A DNA stretch of 63,998 nucleotides, filler included, from Malassezia furfur (lineage: Eukaryota), in NCBI GenBank assembly GCA_052055015.1. It is 4 parts of 4 records of this genome, joined end to end, with 100 filler letters (N's around TTAATTAATTAA, not from the genome) between each part and the next. Parts side by side here need not be neighbours in the genome. Positions count along the whole stretch, not along the records: positions 34,789 to 51,987 come from JBQJIT010000229.1; 3 more parts are not named here. One strand, 5' to 3'. A model generated the notes under the pieces. It did no database searches. It was given only the letters and a program-made list of their open reading frames with translations, and was not told the DNA's origin. Shown piece after piece: positions 17,309 to 52,087 of this stretch. Both the position numbers and the translations under genes were made by a program. Position 1 is the first letter of the stretch; each line of letters opens with the position of its first letter.

Positions 17309-17408
17309 NNNNNNNNNNNNNNNNNNNNNNNNNNNNNNNNNNNNNNNNNNNNTTAATTAATTAANNNNNNNNNNNNNNNNNNNNNNNNNNNNNNNNNNNN
17401 NNNNNNNN
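17309..17408. other. Artificial contig-joining spacer
   Basis: N44-TTAATTAATTAA-N44, with stops in all six frames. Confidence 0.98.
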
Positions 17409-34688: not shown

Positions 34689-34788
34689 NNNNNNNNNNNN
34701 NNNNNNNNNNNNNNNNNNNNNNNNNNNNNNNNTTAATTAATTAANNNNNNNNNNNNNNNNNNNNNNNNNNNNNNNNNNNNNNNNNNNN
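34689..34788. other. Artificial contig-joining spacer
   Basis: N44-TTAATTAATTAA-N44. Confidence 0.98.
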
Positions 34789-37701
34789 GGCTTTGCGTGG
34801 ACTGCGTGTCTTGGGCAGCTGGGCGGGTGCGCCGCCGCCCGCGCTGCTCTCGGCCATGAGCTGCGCGAGCTCGTTGTCGAGCGCGAGCTCCGCCTCGCGT
34901 GCGCGCGCGGCCTCTTGCTCGTGCTCGAGCGCCTCGATCTCCTCGGCGGTCGCGGGCGGCGCGGCGTCGGGCGCGGCGTCGCTCTCGTCGTCGTCGTCGT
35001 GGTGCCGGCGCGGACCCTGCTCCGAGTCGCTCTCCGAGTCGCTCTCCGAGTCGCTCTCCTGCGCGGCGCCCGCGGCGACGTTGGCGAGCTGCCGCCGGTG
35101 GTAGAAGGGCAGCACGGCGTCGAGGCGGCGCTCGGCGTCCGCCTGGTCGTCGTCGCGCCACACGAGCTTGGGGCGCAGCGTCTCGAGCGTGTGCTGCAGG
35201 CGGTACGCGACGTCGGCGGGCAGCGGCTGCCCCTTGCGCCCCACGTACACGCGGAAGGCCAGCAGGAACTCGTCCATGCGCTTGCGTGCGAGGCCCGTGT
35301 CGAAGCACGCGCCGCACGTGTCGAGCAGCGTGCAGACGAGCGTGATGCGGAAGTAGTCCGTCGCGCCGTCGGGGCCGCCCGCGAGGCAGAAGCGCGCGAG
35401 GCAGTCCATCACCACGTGGCTGTTCACCACGCGGTAGTTGTACAGCTCGCCAAGGTAGTGCACGAGCGCGACGCGCTGCTGGTTCGCCGCGTACGCGTTC
35501 TGCTCGAGCCCCGCGTGGATCGCCTCGGCGATGGCGTCCAGCACGGGCACAAAGAAGGCGTTGTGCACGGGGTATAGCGCGCGCATGATGCGCGCAAGGA
35601 GGTGCACGAGGTGGAACTTGAGCTCCCACGGCCGTGTGAACCGCGCCGCGAGCGCCGCACGCACCTCGTCGCGCGTCCAGTCGAGGCGGCGCACGAGCTG
35701 CACGACGCGGTCGACGTTGTGCTTGTTCAGCATGTGGCAAAAGAGGTGCGTGATGAACTGCTGCATCACCGTCGGCGCCTCGTGCACCACCGCAACGCGC
35801 GGCGGCGGCACACACTGGTAGTACGCGTTGTCGAGCAGCAGCGCGACGCGCGAGTCGGTGTGGTGTGCCGCACGCTTGCGCTGCAGCAGCTGCAGCATGC
35901 CGCTCATCCGCTCCGCCGTCGCGGGCGTCCGCACCAGGTAGCGCCCACACGTCTCAAGGAAGAGCGCCAGCACCTCGAGCGCGGGCACGCCAAAGTCGTC
36001 GAGCAGCGTCTTGATGCAGTAGAACACTAGGTGCTCCGGCACGCGCCCAAACTTGACCAGCTCGCCCAGAAACACGGCGTTGCGCGCACGGCTCAGCGCG
36101 GTCCCGACGTCGTTCGCGCGCCGCCGGTGCAGCGCACGGAACTCGGCGTCCAGGCCCGCCAGCACCCCGTGCGTCACGTCGGGCATGCACGCATGCAGCG
36201 TCGCCACCAGCCGTGCATAATACGGCAGCAGATCGCGCCGGTCGCGCGACACACCGAGCAGGTGGCGCACGAGCCGCGCACGCGTCGCGCGCGTATTGCA
36301 GAACGCCAGCTCGACGGCCGCCTGGTCAATCATCTCGCGGCTCGCGAGGCTCGGCAGGCGCGCCAGCACCGCATTCACCTGCGCGGGCACCGACGCGGCG
36401 TCGACCTCCTCGCCGCCGCCCTCGGCTGGCGCCGCACCGCCGCCCGCGTCCTTGAGCAGCGCGGCGGGCACGTGCATGCGCAGGTCACACAGGTCCGTGT
36501 AGAAGAAGCGCGTCTCCTCGTCCTCCCATGGGCTCTGCCCAGACGCGAGCTCCTGCTCCATCTTCGCGCCTATCTCGGCGAGCACCGACTTCGCGTCCAG
36601 GTTCACCCCGAGCCGCGCCTCGGGCGCCTTGCCGCCGTCGGCCACGGGCGGCATGCGCACACTCAGTTGCTCCGACAGCCCCTTGGCCGCCTCGACGAGC
36701 CGCGCCAGCTCGGCGGCACGCCGCTCAAACGTCTGCTGCCGGTCCTCAAACACCTCGCCGGAGCGGATGTATGCGTCGCGGTTGCGCTCCTCCTGCTGCA
36801 CGAGGTGCTGCGTCAGCATACGCACGTACCGTGCGCTCCCGCTGGATGCGCCGCGCAAGCGTCGTAAAGTAGGTCTCGAGCAGCTTCCGAAAGCGCGCCT
36901 TGGTCGCGGCGGGGACGAGCGCATTCGGCTCCGTCGCCGCAGGCGCCACGGCCTCACCCGCCTCGTGCTCGACCACGGGCGCAAGAAGGTGCGCGCCGTA
37001 CGCCTTGAGCAGCGGCAGGACGAGCGAAACGTTCGCATGGTCGCGGTCCTGGACAAGCTGCGTCAGCGGCGCCCACGTACCAAGCTGCGCAGCGCATTGT
37101 ACAGCACGTCGTGACCCATCGTGGCGACGCGCTGCGCGTCGTCGTCCTCGGGCACCTCGGTACCCAGCAGGCCGGTCAGCGCCAGCTCGGCGGCGCCGCG
37201 CAGCAGCACACGCTGCCGGCCGAGGCGCGCCGCCTCGTCCTTCTCGCGCTGCTCCGCAGAGAGCTCGTGGAGCGCAGCAAGATTCGGGGGTATGAGCTGC
37301 GCACTCACCGCGCGCGTCAAGGGGATTGTGAACGCCTCAGCGCCGTACCGCCGGTGCAGCGTCGCGATCAGCTCCACGGCCGCGAGGCGGTCCTTCAACG
37401 TCGCGCTCCGCCATAGTAATTCGGGAAGGCTTGGCACCAGCTCATCCAGATACTTGCCGAGATTTAGTGTGTCGACGTCGCGCAGCAGCTGGTCCTTGGC
37501 GTCGGCCACGTTGCCCTGGCGCACGCGCTTGATGAACGTCGAGTTGCGCTTCAGCGACGCGTCCAGCGCCTGCGGCGCGGCCCTGGCACCGGCGCGCCAC
37601 ACGACGGCATTTTGCGCAAAGAGCGCTGCACGTTGCCGATCGCGCTCGCCCGCTTGGGCATCGGACGCGGGTTTCGCCCCGCCCTCCGCTGCCGCGCTCA
37701 T
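34789..37701 (-). CDS. NMD2: Nonsense-mediated decay factor Upf2 (3' truncated), introns 37058-37080 and 36808-36829
   Basis: LDASLKRNSTFIKR, WEDEETRFFY, three MIF4G domains (YLGELYNY, DYFRITLVCTLLDTCG), acidic tail. Confidence 0.92.
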
Positions 37702-39932: not shown

Positions 39933-40465
39933 ATGCCTGTGACGTGAGTGCGATGCGCAGAATCGGAGCAGCATACTGACACACGAGCCTACTCGGCTTA
40001 TGCCATCAGCGGTTCTGACATCTTCAAGATCTTCTTCGCGATCTTCCTCCCGCCCGTGGGTGTGTTCATGGAGCGCGGCTGCAACGCCGACTTCTGGAGT
40101 ATGTGTTGCACACGACTTGCTGCCTAGCGCGGCAGCATTGTCACAAGAACAGTACTAACCTTCTAGTTGACGTCCTGCTGACCATCATTGGTTACTTCCC
40201 GGTACGTACCATGCTTGACAATCGTATGCTAACACAACAGGGTATCATTTATGCAGTGCGTATTCCCATGCACCCGTGTGCAACTACTAACACGGCATAC
40301 TTGCCCTGTCGTACAGCTGTACGCACACTCTCTCGATCTACATGGGCATCGGGGGTCCTTCTCCGCACAGATTACTAACACAAGCGCCACTCTGCGCAAA
40401 TTTCTCCAGCTATGTCATGTACGTCTTCCCGTGTGTTCGGCTAACGCGGTAGCTTCCGTTATTAA
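39933..40465 (+). CDS. PMP3: Plasma-membrane proteolipid Pmp3 (57 aa, 7 exons)
   Basis: Exons 39933-43, 40010-98, 40167-201, 40241-55, 40317-18, 40410-18, 40453-65 give MPVTGSDIFKIFFAIFLPPVGVFMERGCNADFWIDVLLTIIGYFPGIIYALYVIFRY*. Confidence 0.9.
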
Positions 40466-40752
40466 ATGGGACGTGTAATGGGCGCGTAATACAAATTAAA
40501 TCGCCTCGGCGTGCTCATCGGGTTTCGAATTGCCTTAATACATCTAGAACTCGTATAGGAATCACCTCAATTCATCACTCTAAATTTAGCGAGCCTGCGC
40601 TCCGATCGCGCCGGTCATGCGGATCTCGTCTGGATCGGTCCCAGGCACCGCGGCCGCGACCAAATCGCCAAAAATCAGAAAGCTTAGATAGGTGCATGCA
40701 GTGGCGTTTCGTATTTTTACATTGTTTACATATTAACTGGCCGGTCCCGTCC

Positions 40753-42429
40753 TTAGGCAGTCAGCGGCATCTTGCTCCCTTGCGGGAAGTGGAAGTTAGA
40801 AAGGTAGGATTCAATAATGTTGGCCGCCGCAGTCGTACCACCCGCCTGCATCGCGCGCAGCTTCCACGCAAGCGCAGCATGACGGAACTTGTCCCCCTTG
40901 TCCTCGAGCAACTGAGCCAGCTTCGTGCTCACGTCGATAGGGTCAAAGAACGGCGACTTTTCAGCCCACAAACCGACACCAGAGTGCTCGATGTAGGCAC
41001 CAATATCGTGCGTGTCCACCCACTGCGAAACACAGAACTGAGGAATGCCATAGTACAGCGCCTCGTTGAACGAGTTGCCACCACCGTGGTGCACACAGAC
41101 GGCCACCGCCGGGTGCTGCAGCACATCCTCGACGCTCGGAAGCCACTCTTCCCGACGGATAAACAGAGGCAAGCGCGACTCGTCTGCGCTGGGAATGGGT
41201 TGCGACTCGAACGGCAGCTTGGGGATCTTCCAAAGAACCTGCAGCTCGGGGAACAGGTCGTGGAGCCGCAAAAGCGCCTCAACAATATTGTCATAGTCCC
41301 GGCGCGAGTAGAAGAAGATGCTTCCCATATTAATGTACACAACACGCTTGCCGTTCAACGAGGCCTGGTCCAGCCACGCCTTCACGGGGTCCGTGCGCAT
41401 AATGCCTTGCGCCGTCGACATGTCCTTGTCGAGCGCCATGTCCACCACGGTCGGCGTCGAGGCAATCGACAAGGGCGGCGACATGCTCGAGGGCGTCACC
41501 GGCACCACCATCGTCGGGGTGCTCAGCTGCATCGCCTTGACGCTCGAGCGCAGCGGGCTCGTCGCAGACGGAGGGAAGCAGAGCCCCACAAAGTACACCG
41601 AGTTATCGTAGGCTGACGGGTGGAAAAAGTCCATGTTGGCCACGTTGAAGGAGATGGTCGCAATCTGCTCCTTGAGCATGCCCGGCGTCGGCGTCATCAC
41701 CGAGTCGCACACAATGTCGGTCGGCTCGAGCCCAAGGACCTTCTCACGGAAGCGGCGACGCTCCTTAGCCCACGGGTTGAACAGGACAAACTTGAGCCAC
41801 ATCAGAATAAACATGACGTTGTGCAAAAACGTCAACAGACCACCCTGGAACTTGCGGCCACCACTCATGGGCATGGGCGCACGCCACAGGTCCACGTCCT
41901 TGGCCACCGCGGAAGAGGCACCAGGCGAAGTCTCGATGAAGGGACGCTTCGTAAGGCGGACACCATCCACGGCAAAGGGACTAAAGTTGTCCACAATCAC
42001 CAGGTCCGGTGATTGCTCCTCAATCATGTCACGGATATGGAAAACAAGGTCGCGGTAGTCGTCCGAGCTCGGCGGCACCAGTTCGGTAAAGATCTTCAGC
42101 CAGCCCCAGATATCACCAGGCGCCGAACGGCAGTACTTGTGGAAACGCTCCGGGTCCTCTGCAGCCTCCGCCGTGTAGTCGGCGAGAGCTTCACCCGACC
42201 CGAGCGAGTAAAATACAAGCGGCTGCTTCGCCAAAAACTCTTCACTGGGCCGAGTGTCGGGCTGCGGCACGCGGCCAAGCTTCGTCTGCAGCTTCTGCAC
42301 CTTGCGGAGGACATTGTCGGAAGACGCAAGGACCACTTGGTGGCCACGGTTGATCAGCTCTTCCGAAACGGCCAGAAGCGGGTTCATTTGACCCGTTGCG
42401 GGATTTGTGATGATCAGGAACCTCCTCAT
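40753..42429 (-). CDS. GT1-family UDP-glycosyltransferase, smut glycolipid (Ugt1/Emt1)-like
   Basis: N-terminal TNPATGQMNPLLAVSEEL, VYINMGS, donor-binding box WLPS..VLQHP..VHHGGGNSFNEALYYGIPQ. Confidence 0.88.
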   Translation of the reverse strand: MRRFLIITNPATGQMNPLLAVSEELINRGHQVVLASSDNVLRKVQKLQTKLGRVPQPDTRPSEEFLAKQPLVFYSLGSGEALADYTAEAAEDPERFHKYCRSAPGDIWGWLKIFTELVPPSSDDYRDLVFHIRDMIEEQSPDLVIVDNFSPFAVDGVRLTKRPFIETSPGASSAVAKDVDLWRAPMPMSGGRKFQGGLLTFLHNVMFILMWLKFVLFNPWAKERRRFREKVLGLEPTDIVCDSVMTPTPGMLKEQIATISFNVANMDFFHPSAYDNSVYFVGLCFPPSATSPLRSSVKAMQLSTPTMVVPVTPSSMSPPLSIASTPTVVDMALDKDMSTAQGIMRTDPVKAWLDQASLNGKRVVYINMGSIFFYSRRDYDNIVEALLRLHDLFPELQVLWKIPKLPFESQPIPSADESRLPLFIRREEWLPSVEDVLQHPAVAVCVHHGGGNSFNEALYYGIPQFCVSQWVDTHDIGAYIEHSGVGLWAEKSPFFDPIDVSTKLAQLLEDKGDKFRHAALAWKLRAMQAGGTTAAANIIESYLSNFHFPQGSKMPLTA

Positions 42430-43768
42430 CGTGCTGTCGAAACGGGTTGCCGATGTAGAGAGGGCGAGCTGGGATCCGATGGCCAGCTTTTTATTGTATT
42501 CCGAACTCTGAAACTGCAGGGCCACTTTAATGATTGCACACCCGCTCTCAAACTGTCTGCTGCATTGCAGTACATGGAGACTGCGACATTTGCCACCGTC
42601 TAGGACATCAAAGGTCTGGATCGGCCAATGAAATTCGCTCAACCACGTTATCTGAAGCACAAATTTACACAGGGTTGAGTTGACGCAGAGTTCATTCTTG
42701 ATTCGGAGTGTGAAAGACGAGGGTTCTATGATTCAATTTATGATTGGTCCAGATCACCACTTCTTTACGCGAAGCATCAAGATACGATAGATAAAGATTG
42801 GCCCTATTGTTCAGTTGTCGTGGTGCTAAGATCGAACGTGCAAATATATTTTTCGGATTTCGCTGCGCACAGGTTCCCCTGTTCAAGCGAGCAACGGGGA
42901 TCACGTATTAATCCCGCGAAGCACGTGCGATATTCACTTGGAATCGTGCGTGGTTTCGCCATGCTCTCGGTCAATGTTCCTCGCTGCAGGGCTTAAAGAC
43001 CAGCTGCGCATAGGAGTTAAGAGGAGGTCTAAAATTAAGAGACCCAGAGTAGGTATTTCTCCGCACAACGTGCCCGAGAGCGCAGACTAAGGGCTCGGTG
43101 TAAGACTACACGCCAACGCCACCGTCTTGGCACGTGTATGTGCTTCGAAAGCTATAGAGCGCGGTCAATTAGATCTCTATGTACAATGCAAAGTATTCCC
43201 TCTCTCCTTAACCAGACACCCTACTTTGCTCGCATTCCGATCCGCTTCAGACGCCGTCTTCTGTGAGCCAGGGAATCGCGCTCATCAGGTGTCCGTGCCG
43301 TTGTCGCTCTCGTGACAAATGATTTGAAATCGGATGCAGCTCGGTGCTGACAAAAAGAGGTCATGAATGCGGGACCAACGCCCGGACGCCGATGCTGCAA
43401 TGTCGCCAAGGGGGGATGCAGATGTTACTTGGCGTCTGCTTGTCACCGAGGCCGGGCTGTCCAGGGTGCCTGAAGCCGCGTGGTCCCACAATTAAGCCAA
43501 TCCAAGCCGCGAAATTCGAAATAGGATAAGGGCGTTCGAGTGCCCTGCTCCGAGCTATTAGGTAATCTGGTGAACAAACCCAATCGGGCGCCGCGTTGTT
43601 CGTGTTGGCGTAGGCATGCCCATGCAAGTTGTTGTTCAGTTGACCCATAGTCCATCGGTGCGCGCACGCCCTTGCGCCAGTGTTGAAATCCGTTTGTACA
43701 GCGAGCGCGTTGATTCTTCAAGCCATTACTGTCAAACCACACCTACTGGATTGTGGTCCTTTTTCAAG
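42430..43768. promoter_or_regulatory. Long shared divergent promoter of the UGT and CYP genes
   Basis: 1.34 kb without a credible ORF, visibly lower GC than the flanks, several CCAAT/ATTGG and CTCGG/CCGAG motifs. Confidence 0.6.
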
Positions 43769-45613
43769 ATGAGTGGCAGTGAATCCGTCGCAACTCTCTT
43801 TGTGCCGGCCCTCAAGGTACTTGGTGCTCTTGTGGGCGTCCTTCTCGGCGTGGTTCTGCTGTTCCTGCTGAACCAGATTCTCGGTGCCGTGTACCGTGCG
43901 ACCATCGGCGAATGGTTCAGCCCGTGGAAGCACATCCCTAAGGTCAAGACGACCGACCCGCTTGCGCTCTTCTTCGGTGATTTCCGTGCGATCAAGGCTG
44001 CGCAGCCGGGCGAGCAGCATGTCCAGTGGATGAACGAGCTCGGCCCGATCTACCGTTACCGTCACATGTTCGAGGTGCAGCGTGTGCTGCTGGCCGACCC
44101 CAAGGCGCTGATCCATGTGCTGAGTCCCGCGAAGGCGTACCAGTTCCCCAAGCCCGAGTACACCAGTGCCTTCTTGACGGCCGCCCTTGGCCAGGGTCTC
44201 GTGTCGATCGAGGGTGAGACGCACCGTCGCCAGCGCAAGATTATTGCCCCGGCGTTTGCGCCCAGTGTCGTGAAGGAGTTCTGCCCCGTGATCCACCGCC
44301 ACGCCAAGCTGCTCACTGATAAGCTCGAGACGATTGTCGGCGAGATGATTGCGCGTCACCAGGGCAAGATCCCCAAGGACACGCTCATCACCGGCGAGTG
44401 CCCCTCGGACCGCGACGTGAAGCTGGCAGACCCCGACCACTCGGCTGTGGTCGACACGCTGTTCTGGCTGTCGCGTACGACGCTCGACATCATTGGTGAG
44501 ATTGGTTTCAGCGCCGAGTTCCTTGCGCTGGAAAACGGTAACGACCACCCCCTGGCGAACGCCATGGGCACGCTCATTGGTGCGATCCTTGACCTGGAGC
44601 TGAGCACGGCCATCTTCCTGATTCTCTCGGAGAAGCCGGGTCTCAAGTGGCTGCGCTACCTCCCCAGCGACCGCAACCGCCGCCTGAAGGAGTCGCAGAA
44701 CGTCGTGCGTGAGCACGCGGCCAAGATTATCGACAAGATGCGCCAGGACATTCTTGCGGAGAACAAGGACGGCGTCACCTCGGATGTGATGAAGCCCAAG
44801 TCGGTCATTTCGCGCATGGTTCGTGCCAACATGGCAACCGACCTGAAGCCGTCTGAGCGCATGTCGAACGAGGAGCTGATGGGTCAGGTGACGACGGTGA
44901 TTATTGCCGGACACGAGACGACCGCGACGCAGAACACGTGGGCGCTGTGGCTCCTGGCCACGCACCAGGACGTGCAGGACCGTCTGCGCAAGGAGCTGCA
45001 GGACCAGATGGCCAAGGAAGCCGCCGAGATTGACTCGCTCACTGAGGAGGAGCGCGCCATCTACGACATCCAGCCCGTGCGCAACCTCGATGCGGTGCCG
45101 ATGCTCGACAAGGTGGTGAAGGAGTCGGTGCGTATGCTGCCGTCGGTGCCCAGCACCGTGCGTGTCGCGCTCAAGGACGACGTCGTGCCCCTGTCCAAGT
45201 CGTACAAGCGTGCGGACGGCAAGGGCACCTACAACTCGATCGTCATCCCCAAGGGCCACGAGCTCTTCATCCCCCTCAACGTCATCCAGCTCTCCAAGGA
45301 GATCTGGGGCGAGGACGCGCAGGAGTTCAACCCCGACCGCTGGGACAACCTGCCCTCGTCGGTCATTGACGCCAAGATGCCGCCGGGCCACACGTTTGCC
45401 TTCCTGTCTGGCCCCCGCTCGTGCATTGGCAAGCAGCTTGCCATCATGGAGACGCAGGTTCTGCTCGCGCACCTCTTGCTCAAGTTCAAGTTTGACATTG
45501 TCCCTGGTTGGGACCTCATTCAGCGCCAGCAGGTGGTGCGCCGTGCATTCGTCGATGGCCAGAAGGAATACGGCGTGCGCATGCCCCTGATCCTTACGCC
45601 TCTGTCGAAGTAA
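43769..45613 (+). CDS. Cytochrome P450 monooxygenase (ER-anchored)
   Basis: N-terminal TM, AGHETT, ESVR (ExxR), FNPDRW, FLSGPRSCIG heme motif; intronless. Confidence 0.95.
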   Translation: MSGSESVATLFVPALKVLGALVGVLLGVVLLFLLNQILGAVYRATIGEWFSPWKHIPKVKTTDPLALFFGDFRAIKAAQPGEQHVQWMNELGPIYRYRHMFEVQRVLLADPKALIHVLSPAKAYQFPKPEYTSAFLTAALGQGLVSIEGETHRRQRKIIAPAFAPSVVKEFCPVIHRHAKLLTDKLETIVGEMIARHQGKIPKDTLITGECPSDRDVKLADPDHSAVVDTLFWLSRTTLDIIGEIGFSAEFLALENGNDHPLANAMGTLIGAILDLELSTAIFLILSEKPGLKWLRYLPSDRNRRLKESQNVVREHAAKIIDKMRQDILAENKDGVTSDVMKPKSVISRMVRANMATDLKPSERMSNEELMGQVTTVIIAGHETTATQNTWALWLLATHQDVQDRLRKELQDQMAKEAAEIDSLTEEERAIYDIQPVRNLDAVPMLDKVVKESVRMLPSVPSTVRVALKDDVVPLSKSYKRADGKGTYNSIVIPKGHELFIPLNVIQLSKEIWGEDAQEFNPDRWDNLPSSVIDAKMPPGHTFAFLSGPRSCIGKQLAIMETQVLLAHLLLKFKFDIVPGWDLIQRQQVVRRAFVDGQKEYGVRMPLILTPLSK

Positions 45614-45779
45614 TTCATTACTCCATGGGCCGATGAATCTGGTATTGTCGGTTTGCCCTAGGGCAGTCTCTGTCCTTTCTTCCCACCCTTATTTTTTGTG
45701 CAATAAAACAGGAATTGCGATTACATAGAAGCATCATCGCCCGTTCGCCCGCCTCTTGTCTACCGCAGGTCTACGAAAA

Positions 45780-46301
45780 TCACTGCGGAGCCCGGAAGCC
45801 GCCCGTGGAGCCAAAGCCGCCGCTGCCCCGTTCCGTGTCTTCGAGCGACTGCGTGAGTATGTACTACACACCTCGACCTCCTCGATCTCCGGCGTGGAGA
45901 TCTTTTCGAGCACCAGCTGCGCGATGCGGTCGCCCGCGTGGACTGAGGTCAGCGCCGCGCACGCACATTGGAAGTCTTCGGCGCCAAAGTTGAACAGCAC
46001 CACACCAAGTAGGCCACGGTAGTCGGCATCCACGACGCCAGCTCCAGTGTCAATGCCATGCTTCACCGCTGCTGTTAGCCGTCGACCTACCCAGCCCACT
46101 GCGCGGCGCGACGCGGCCATAGTGGCCCTCAGGGATCGCGACCGAGATGCCCGTTTGCACGACGGCGCGGCCGCCCTTGGGGACCACGGTGTCTTCCGCC
46201 GCATACAGATCGTATCCAGCTGCCTGGCTACTTCCACGCGTCGGAATCTTCGCCAGGGGGTATGCAGGGTTGCGGCGCACCAGGAAACGAACCGACGACA
46301 T
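45780..46301 (-). CDS. DUT1: dUTPase, three 22-24 nt introns
   Basis: AAGYDLY, APRSGLA, GVVDADYRG, GDRIAQL, RGSGGFGSTG. Confidence 0.95.
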
Positions 46302-51987: not shown

Positions 51988-52087
51988 NNNNNNNNNNNNN
52001 NNNNNNNNNNNNNNNNNNNNNNNNNNNNNNNTTAATTAATTAANNNNNNNNNNNNNNNNNNNNNNNNNNNNNNNNNNNNNNNNNNNN
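51988..52087. other. Artificial contig-joining spacer
   Basis: N44-TTAATTAATTAA-N44. Confidence 0.98.

What the first reader, a model, noticed from the sequence alone, without database searches (positions are those of the whole stretch)
40753..45613. Divergent UDP-glycosyltransferase + P450 pair: candidate minimal glycolipid (biosurfactant) cluster
Seen: two intronless genes lie head-to-head across a 1.34-kb spacer, by far the longest intergenic region here, between unrelated housekeeping genes (PMP3, DUT1) on one contig. The UGT begins TNPATGQMNPLLA. Known: Ustilago/Pseudozyma cellobiose-lipid clusters hydroxylate a fatty acid with a P450 (Cyp1) and glycosylate it with a GT1 enzyme (Ugt1), and Malassezia lacks cytosolic fatty acid synthase. 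Inference: the N-terminus recalls the NPAxG start of Ugt1/Emt1, and the pair may be a stripped two-gene module (no FAS, acyltransferase, exporter or regulator nearby). It could convert host skin fatty acids into glycolipids for emulsification, antimicrobial action or immune signalling, or it could be a hydroxylate-then-conjugate detox unit.
Basis: partly seen in the sequence, partly recalled or inferred. Interest (0 to 1): 0.85.

Follow-up and report, generated by a model that had tools for sequence, protein, structure and literature searches.

The report
Candidate Malassezia mannolipid gene pair
A skin yeast keeps a sugar-transferring enzyme beside a fatty-acid-binding P450 of unknown function, and the pair is a testable but unproven candidate for making the mannose-bearing lipid that the immune receptor Mincle detects.

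Summary
The pair is real: a 558-aa GT1 glycosyltransferase and an intact 614-aa P450, divergent across 1,339 bp, in a Malassezia furfur-like genome. It does not look like a cellobiose-lipid remnant. The transferase clade (Malassezia, Tilletia, Ceraceosorus) is sister to Emt1, the beta-mannosyltransferase of mannosylerythritol lipids (100/99), and carries a membrane-type helix that Emt1 lacks. The P450 is, by synteny and locus tags, CYP5218 (MGL_3996), published as binding fatty acids without turning over six free acids. Both clades show the same taxa. The genes are adjacent in every Malassezia checked, near each other in Ceraceosorus by accession, and apart in Tilletia; the whole housekeeping block is syntenic too. 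Malassezia makes beta-mannosyl-10-hydroxystearate mannitol esters (a Mincle ligand) and mid-chain hydroxy fatty acids; I found no genes named for either. Best reading (0.4): the P450 hydroxylates a fatty acyl chain and the transferase beta-mannosylates it. Donor, acceptor, product and co-expression are all untested.

The parts
40753..42429 (-). GT1 (GT-B fold) glycosyltransferase, 558 aa; clade sister to Emt1; proposed lipid beta-mannosyltransferase
   Evidence: Pfam; trees; 27% identity over residues 3-546 to P. hubeiensis Emt1 GAC96558; AlphaFold model pLDDT 89, GT1 structures as top Foldseek hits
42388..42390 (-). Gln14 at the site of the catalytic His of plant UGTs (Glu in Emt1); also Gln in many outgroup GT1s, so not diagnostic
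   Evidence: alignment; motif table
41770..41841 (-). Hydrophobic helix, residues 197-220, in the N-terminal (acceptor) domain; likely membrane-inserting; polar in Emt1
   Evidence: Wimley-White sum <= -7.3 in 25 of 25 clade members, >= +0.8 in 10 of 10 Emt1-type, -6.7 to +8.5 in 25 others; helix 198-217 in model
41425..41553 (-). Ser/Thr/Pro-rich low-confidence linker insertion, residues 293-335; short or absent in the second paralogue
   Evidence: pLDDT < 50; alignment
41011..41145 (-). Nucleotide-sugar binding signature W429...HHGGGNSFNE...SQWxDT473, closely matched by Emt1
42430..43768 (.). Divergent intergenic spacer, 1,339 bp, GC 0.51; presumed shared promoter region; no conserved motif found
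   Evidence: 646-778 bp in 5 other loci, no 7-mer shared by four species-level spacers; no Rfam match; only short repeats
43769..45613 (+). Cytochrome P450, 614 aa, inferred orthologue of M. globosa CYP5218A1 (MGL_3996); N-terminal membrane anchor about residues 15-35
   Evidence: 98% to M. furfur CBS9595_002777; MGL_3995 is an Emt1 hit and MGL_3996 is CYP5218
45401..45430 (+). Heme-binding motif FLSGPRSCIG (residues 545-554)
39933..40479 (+). Flank: PMP3, multi-exon (ends approximate); not part of the proposed module
   Evidence: PF01679 on exon 40011-40097; syntenic in other loci
45734..46301 (-). Flank: dUTPase DUT1, interrupted by introns (ends approximate); not part of the proposed module
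   Evidence: PF00692; syntenic

Best explanation
The two genes are a coupled membrane-bound module that builds beta-mannosyloxy fatty acyl units. CYP5218 puts a hydroxyl on a C16-C18 acyl chain at mid-chain, probably on an esterified or activated chain (acyl-CoA, mannitol ester or membrane lipid) rather than a free acid. The Emt1-sister GT1, held at the membrane by its hydrophobic helix, then transfers mannose with inversion from GDP-mannose to that hydroxyl. The product would be the 10-O-beta-mannosyl-hydroxystearate unit of the Malassezia Mincle ligand. The second paralogue, or a second round by the same enzyme, could add the beta-1,2 mannose. The mannitol acyltransferase lies elsewhere and is unidentified. 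Shown here: enzyme classes, sister relation to Emt1, helix, linkage, matching taxa. Inferred: donor, acceptor, P450 reaction, product, co-regulation.
For: Emt1 clade is sister to the clade of this UGT: 100/99 in a 32-row IQ-TREE, SH 100 in a 93-row FastTree. Emt1 makes a beta-mannoside. This is the only PF00201 and only Emt1 match found in the genome. The ligand has beta-mannose and beta-1,2-dimannose on 10-hydroxyoctadecanoic acid, and M. furfur activates Mincle. M. pachydermatis, the source species, has the UGT and P450 on consecutive accessions plus a second paralogue. Membrane-type helix in 25 of 25 clade members and 0 of 10 Emt1-type. CYP5218 gives type I binding with C12-C18 acids. A 2026 review says no hydratase is identified for Malassezia 10-hydroxypalmitate and cites 9-hydroxy acids made from saturated acids. 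No oleate hydratase (PF06100) match in this genome, control rang in 5 of 14.
Against: CYP5218 gave no product with lauric, myristic, palmitic, palmitoleic, oleic or linoleic acid and three foreign reductases; the authors concluded fatty acids are not its substrates. C10 is the position expected from hydration of a delta-9 double bond, which needs no P450. Identity to Emt1 is only 27%, and no motif separated mannose from glucose donors. The whole neighbourhood is syntenic in Malassezia, so linkage there says little. The genes are apart in 5 of 5 Tilletia assemblies with both locus tags. No shared spacer motif. No second paralogue found in this genome. Absences come from a 1,856-contig assembly; the PF12141 control was silent.
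Confidence: 0.4

Rival explanations
1. The UGT is the beta-mannosyltransferase for the Mincle ligand, but the hydroxyl comes from an unidentified hydratase or from the medium; CYP5218 does some other reaction on a related lipid or is an unrelated neighbour.
For: No in vitro turnover by CYP5218; C10 fits hydration of oleate or palmitoleate; genes apart in Tilletia.
Against: No PF06100 match in this genome; matching taxa of both clades and linkage in Ceraceosorus.
Confidence: 0.2
2. A coupled oxidise-then-glycosylate pair with another product: glucosylation of host or medium lipids for detoxification, another glycolipid, or the gentiobiosyl diacylglycerol also reported from Malassezia.
For: Nearest outside P450s include xenobiotic-oxidising basidiomycete families; GT1 donors switch readily (general knowledge); gentiobiosyl diacylglycerol is a second Malassezia glycolipid; the helix fits any membrane acceptor.
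Against: The closest characterised relative found is a beta-mannosyltransferase; I found no other candidate for the beta-mannosyl bonds in this genome; near single-copy retention in a reduced genome is less typical of broad detox families (inference).
Confidence: 0.22
3. Incidental neighbours: two functionally unrelated genes kept together by general Malassezia synteny.
For: RhoGAP-CWC27-methyltransferase-DUT1-CYP-UGT-PMP3-KH-MIF4G order is kept in the loci that span it; apart in Tilletia; second paralogue sits among housekeeping genes without a P450.
Against: Accessions two apart in Ceraceosorus, a different class; same named taxa for both clades.
Confidence: 0.15
4. A stripped cellobiose-lipid (ustilagic acid or flocculosin) cluster: Cyp1-type omega-hydroxylase plus Ugt1-type glucosyltransferase making a secreted biosurfactant.
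For: Same two enzyme classes and same logic as that cluster.
Against: P450 family differs from the U. maydis P450s um06463 and um06459; Ugt1 absent from the top 20 Emt1 hits that include the Malassezia proteins; no Ustilaginales hit at orthologue level for either gene; no palmitate turnover.
Confidence: 0.03

Closest known systems
Emt1 erythritol beta-mannosyltransferase of the MEL cluster (U. maydis, Pseudozyma; P. hubeiensis GAC96558)
   Same: GT1 fold; sister clade (100/99); NPAxG start, INMGS, HHGGGNSFNE and SQWxDT motifs; reciprocal best match within this genome.
   Different: 27% identity; separate clade from Emt1 and its Aspergillus/Microstromatales/Exobasidium relatives; Gln for Glu at residue 14; hydrophobic helix absent from Emt1; neighbour is a P450, not Mac1/Mac2/Mat1/Mmf1.
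CYP5218A1 (M. globosa MGL_3996)
   Same: Inferred orthologue: MGL_3995 is an Emt1 hit and the P450 is the adjacent gene in all Malassezia checked; size fits (construct 69,833 Da published; 68.9-71.1 kDa computed for 32 homologs).
   Different: No direct sequence comparison with MGL_3996 was possible and no exact mass match was found. In the parts I read, the paper does not mention the neighbouring transferase.
Ustilagic acid / flocculosin cellobiose-lipid cluster (Cyp1, Cyp2, Ugt1)
   Same: P450 plus GT1 acting on a fatty acid.
   Different: 11-12 genes with FAS, acyltransferases, exporter and regulator; different P450 families; terminal rather than mid-chain hydroxylation; glucose rather than the proposed mannose.
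Malassezia mannosyloxystearyl-mannitol Mincle ligand (Ishikawa 2013, seen through reviews PMC4066366, PMC4196476, PMC5776103)
   Same: Needs a beta-mannosyltransferase for a hydroxy fatty acid and a C10 hydroxyl, which is what this pair could supply.
   Different: A compound, not a gene system; no biochemical link to these genes has been shown; isolated from M. pachydermatis, not from this genome's species.

Membership tests
GT1 / UDP-glycosyltransferase superfamily | GT-B fold and C-terminal nucleotide-sugar signature | tested here: met
   Pfam; model and Foldseek; motifs
Emt1 (MEL mannosyltransferase) | Falls inside the Emt1 orthologue clade | tested here: not met
   Sister to, not inside, the Emt1/Emt1-like clade; 27% identity against 68-72% among Ustilaginales Emt1 proteins
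Emt1 (MEL mannosyltransferase) | Clustered with mac1, mac2, mat1, mmf1 | tested here: not met
   Neighbours on the contig are KH, PMP3, P450, DUT1, methyltransferase, cyclophilin, RhoGAP, MIF4G and one ORF without Pfam match
Emt1 (MEL mannosyltransferase) | GDP-mannose donor, beta-mannoside product | not testable with these tools
   No diagnostic motif found; GDP-mannose as Emt1 donor is recalled
Cellobiose-lipid cluster | P450 of the Cyp1/Cyp2 families | tested here: not met
   CYP5218 versus CYP5025A1 (um06463) and CYP5030A1 (um06459) in PMC4633277 supplements; gene-name mapping recalled; test is by published family names, not by my own alignment
Cellobiose-lipid cluster | Ugt1 orthologue | tested here: inconclusive
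   Ugt1 sequence not obtained; indirect only: absent from the published top-20 Emt1 hits and no Ustilaginales orthologue-level hit, but that word-based search also missed Emt1
Cellobiose-lipid cluster | Linked FAS2, acyltransferases, ABC exporter, Rua1 | tested here: not met
   Not on the 17-kb contig nor among window-gene matches in the syntenic loci
Sterol 3-beta-glucosyltransferase (UGT51) | High similarity to UGT51 and PF03033 domain | tested here: not met
   E 8e-6 partial match only; no PF03033 on the protein; UGT51 was not in my trees
CYP5218 | >40% identity to CYP5218A1 (MGL_3996) | tested here: inconclusive
   No named MGL_3996 sequence retrieved; 68-74% identity to M. restricta and M. 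pachydermatis syntenic P450s; assignment by locus-tag adjacency
Cytochrome P450 | Heme cysteine, ExxR, I-helix acid-alcohol pair | tested here: met

The most novel reading that the evidence does not exclude
This locus is the core of the pathway for the Malassezia beta-mannosyl-10-hydroxystearate Mincle ligand, and CYP5218 is the missing mid-chain fatty acyl hydroxylase that also yields the antistaphylococcal 9/10-hydroxy fatty acids. One two-gene module, older than the split from plant-associated Exobasidiomycetes, would then turn host lipid into both an antibacterial acid and, once mannosylated, an innate-immune ligand.
Probability: 0.2. Interest if true: 0.88.

Novelty: new variant of a known kind. 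Interest (0 to 1): 0.68.

Why it matters
Malassezia is the dominant fungus on human skin. Its Mincle-activating mannolipid has a known structure, but I found no genes named for it, and a 2026 review states that the enzyme for its mid-chain hydroxy fatty acids is unidentified. CYP5218 has been an orphan since 2016. This pair gives two specific genes whose assay or deletion tests all three questions. It also defines an uncharacterised GT1 clade sister to Emt1 that may beta-mannosylate lipids, a hard linkage to make chemically. The logic (P450 plus GT1 making a glycolipid) is known; the clade, the pairing and the proposed product are the new part.

Tried and rejected
Ugt1, Cyp1 and Cyp2 sequences were not retrieved, so no direct tree with them exists. 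Mass matching to the published CYP5218 construct gave no exact hit among 32 proteins (nearest 69,828 is M. vespertilionis and is coincidence). Spacer footprinting: no alignable DNA between species and no shared 7- or 8-mer; the 6-mer excess (91 against 50) used a mononucleotide shuffle and is not trusted. Gln14 and the terminal DT pair looked like donor or mechanism markers but recur in many outgroup GT1s. Correlated UGT and P450 identities across 9 species (Spearman 0.86) are expected from shared descent and are not counted. PF12141 (beta-1,2-mannosyltransferase) search was uninformative because the control was silent. PF03033 gave no match. Foldseek showed only general GT1 likeness at 12-17% identity. 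ESM Atlas gave generic family names. Rfam and repeat scans of the spacer showed nothing notable. Four look-ups in earlier scan findings returned nothing. No expression data were available. A first mixture-model tree did not finish and was replaced.
Full report
OBSERVATION. The window joins four contigs at N runs; the pair lies within one 17-kb contig. The minus-strand ORF 40753-42429 encodes a 558-aa GT1 protein and the plus-strand ORF 43769-45613 a 614-aa P450 with all catalytic motifs. They diverge across 1,339 bp, the longest non-coding-like stretch of the window by a GC3 heuristic, between PMP3 and dUTPase. The P450 is 98% identical to an M. furfur protein, so the genome is M. furfur or close to it.

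THE TRANSFERASE. Homologs fall in steps: Malassezia-level hits 46-79%, Tilletia 43-44%, Ceraceosorus 39%, then about 27-29% full-length. A profile search of 1.84 billion representatives returned a 601-aa protein at E 1e-138 (the profile included Emt1-like rows). It is P. hubeiensis GAC96558, with a cluster member named erythritol-mannosyl-transferase 1, and is 27% identical to our protein over nearly its whole length. In a 93-row FastTree (69 outgroup rows, limited to 430-620 aa among ids P0041-52 and P0185-259) the Malassezia+Tilletia+Ceraceosorus clade has support 99 and joins the Emt1/Emt1-like clade at 100. A 32-row IQ-TREE subset gives 100/99 for both branches. Outgroups were chosen by similarity to the query profile, and Ugt1 and UGT51 were not in the trees. 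Independently, PMC4915680 Table 2 (passages read) lists M. globosa MGL_3995 and MGL_1756 and M. sympodialis CCU99492 among 20 Emt1 BLAST hits and does not list Ugt1; CCU99492 is in the cluster of one of my orthologues. The AlphaFold model is a confident GT-B fold. Residues 197-220 form a hydrophobic helix in 25 of 25 clade members aligned and are polar in 10 of 10 Emt1-type proteins, whose acceptor is a soluble polyol; 25 other GT1s are mixed. I picked this segment after a hydropathy scan. It suggests a membrane lipid acceptor. No motif told mannose from glucose donors. This is the only PF00201 or Emt1 match in the genome (lower bounds in a 1,856-contig assembly).

THE P450. Hits fall in the same steps: Malassezia-level 59-90%, Tilletia 43-45%, Ceraceosorus 40%, two unnamed partial proteins at 46%, then 35% or less. 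These form one clade, support 100. MGL_3996, next to MGL_3995, is CYP5218. PMC4904373 (abstract, results and discussion read, methods passages) reports type I binding of C12-C18 fatty acids, no binding of sterols or alkanes, and no product from six free acids with three foreign reductases; stearate is not in the turnover list. The authors conclude fatty acids are not the substrates. My orthology assignment is by synteny; I had no MGL_3996 sequence. In PMC4633277 (passages, one section, supplement 2 whole, searches of the six supplements) CYP5218 appears only for two Malassezia species, and U. maydis um06463 and um06459 belong to CYP5025 and CYP5030.

LINKAGE. Of 15 metagenomic loci, 6 hold a second paralogue among housekeeping genes with no match to this P450 (two of the six annotated), and 9 hold the orthologue. 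Five of those 9 have enough upstream DNA, and 5 of 5 carry the P450 divergently, with spacers of 646-778 bp; they represent about three species. Consecutive tags or accessions add M. yamatoensis, M. vespertilionis, M. sp. CBS 17886, M. equina and M. pachydermatis. Accession order can mislead: the M. restricta accessions are about 60 apart and the older M. pachydermatis ones 11 apart. The flanking housekeeping order is conserved as well, so linkage within Malassezia is weak evidence. Tilletia copies are apart in 5 of 5 assemblies with both tags. Absence from Ustilaginales is only suggested, because the word-based search also missed Emt1.

THE PRODUCT. Three reviews (passages read) describe a Mincle ligand from M. 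pachydermatis: mannitol esterified with two 10-O-beta-mannosyl and one beta-1,2-dimannosyl 10-hydroxyoctadecanoic acids. M. furfur is among the species that activate Mincle. I recalled this compound first and then checked it; I did not read the primary paper. PMC13317201 (section 6 read) says M. sympodialis makes 10-hydroxypalmitate that kills S. aureus, that no hydratase is identified, and that older work found 9-hydroxy acids from saturated acids. This genome shows no oleate hydratase match. M. pachydermatis has the pair and the second paralogue; this genome shows no second paralogue.

MECHANISM. Best reading (0.40): CYP5218 hydroxylates an esterified or activated C16-C18 chain at mid-chain and the membrane-bound Emt1-sister enzyme adds beta-mannose. 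The weakest step is the P450, given the negative assay and the C10 position typical of hydration. The transferase half alone is about 0.6 (best reading plus rival 1). Rivals: transferase only 0.20; another coupled product or detoxification 0.22; incidental neighbours 0.15; cellobiose-lipid remnant 0.03.

COMPARISON AND NOVELTY. It works like the P450-plus-GT1 core of fungal glycolipid clusters. It fails membership of Emt1 (sister clade, no MEL genes) and of the cellobiose-lipid cluster (P450 family, gene content; Ugt1 test inconclusive). Both genes have appeared in print separately. Ten literature searches showed no paper linking them to each other or to the Mincle ligand; MGL_3995 and MGL_3996 each occur in one paper. 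For most listed papers I saw only the listing, and the library lacks most subscription papers, including the primary ligand paper; the primary 10-hydroxypalmitate paper did not come up, and bioRxiv supplements were closed. Other papers seen as passages: PMC11117751, PMC10218983, PMC6384859, PMC7673458, PMC10098057.

VERDICT. A real, conserved pair; new variant of a known kind; interest 0.68 because it makes open questions in Malassezia lipid biology directly testable, while every chemical step remains inferred.

Noticed in passing
L003:9986-11545, L008-L012; proteins P0020-P0024, P0481: A second Malassezia paralogue (46-52% identity) at a BRCT-UGT-YL1-RNR2-NDC80-CAP locus, nested within the Malassezia clade, with a changed N-terminal motif and a shorter linker; present in M. 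pachydermatis, not found in this genome. Candidate for the second mannose.
   Followed up: partly
proteins P0059, P0072, P0073 (Malassezia sp. CBS 17886 MSPP1_001666-001668): Three tandem copies of the P450 beside the single UGT (MSPP1_001669) by locus tag.
   Followed up: no
proteins P0325, P0326 (M. restricta AXA52112, AXA52113): The orthologous UGT is annotated as two 280- and 268-aa pieces named 'diacylglycerol acyltransferase family', while metagenomic copies are intact 566-aa proteins; likely an assembly or annotation error.
   Followed up: no
protein P0415 (M. pachydermatis KOS12782): The UGT orthologue is labelled 'cytochrome p450' in UniRef and nr although it matches GT1 families only.
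   Followed up: yes
proteins P0030-P0037: Emt1-like proteins in Aspergillus, Talaromyces, Microstromatales and Exobasidium form the clade with Emt1; their clusters were not examined.
   Followed up: no
G000 P450 scan: Only about five P450 types found, most in two copies, in a 13.7-Mb assembly, which suggests a hybrid or diploid genome; the UGT-P450 locus was found once.
   Followed up: partly
window 17309-17408, 34689-34788, 51988-52087: N runs mark contig joins; genes across them are not neighbours by this evidence.
   Followed up: yes
window 37063-37701 (-): A 212-aa ORF with no Pfam match, conserved at 44-49% in the syntenic loci.
   Followed up: no
G000: No PF03033 match, so a sterol glucosyltransferase may be missing from this genome or from the assembly.
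   Followed up: no
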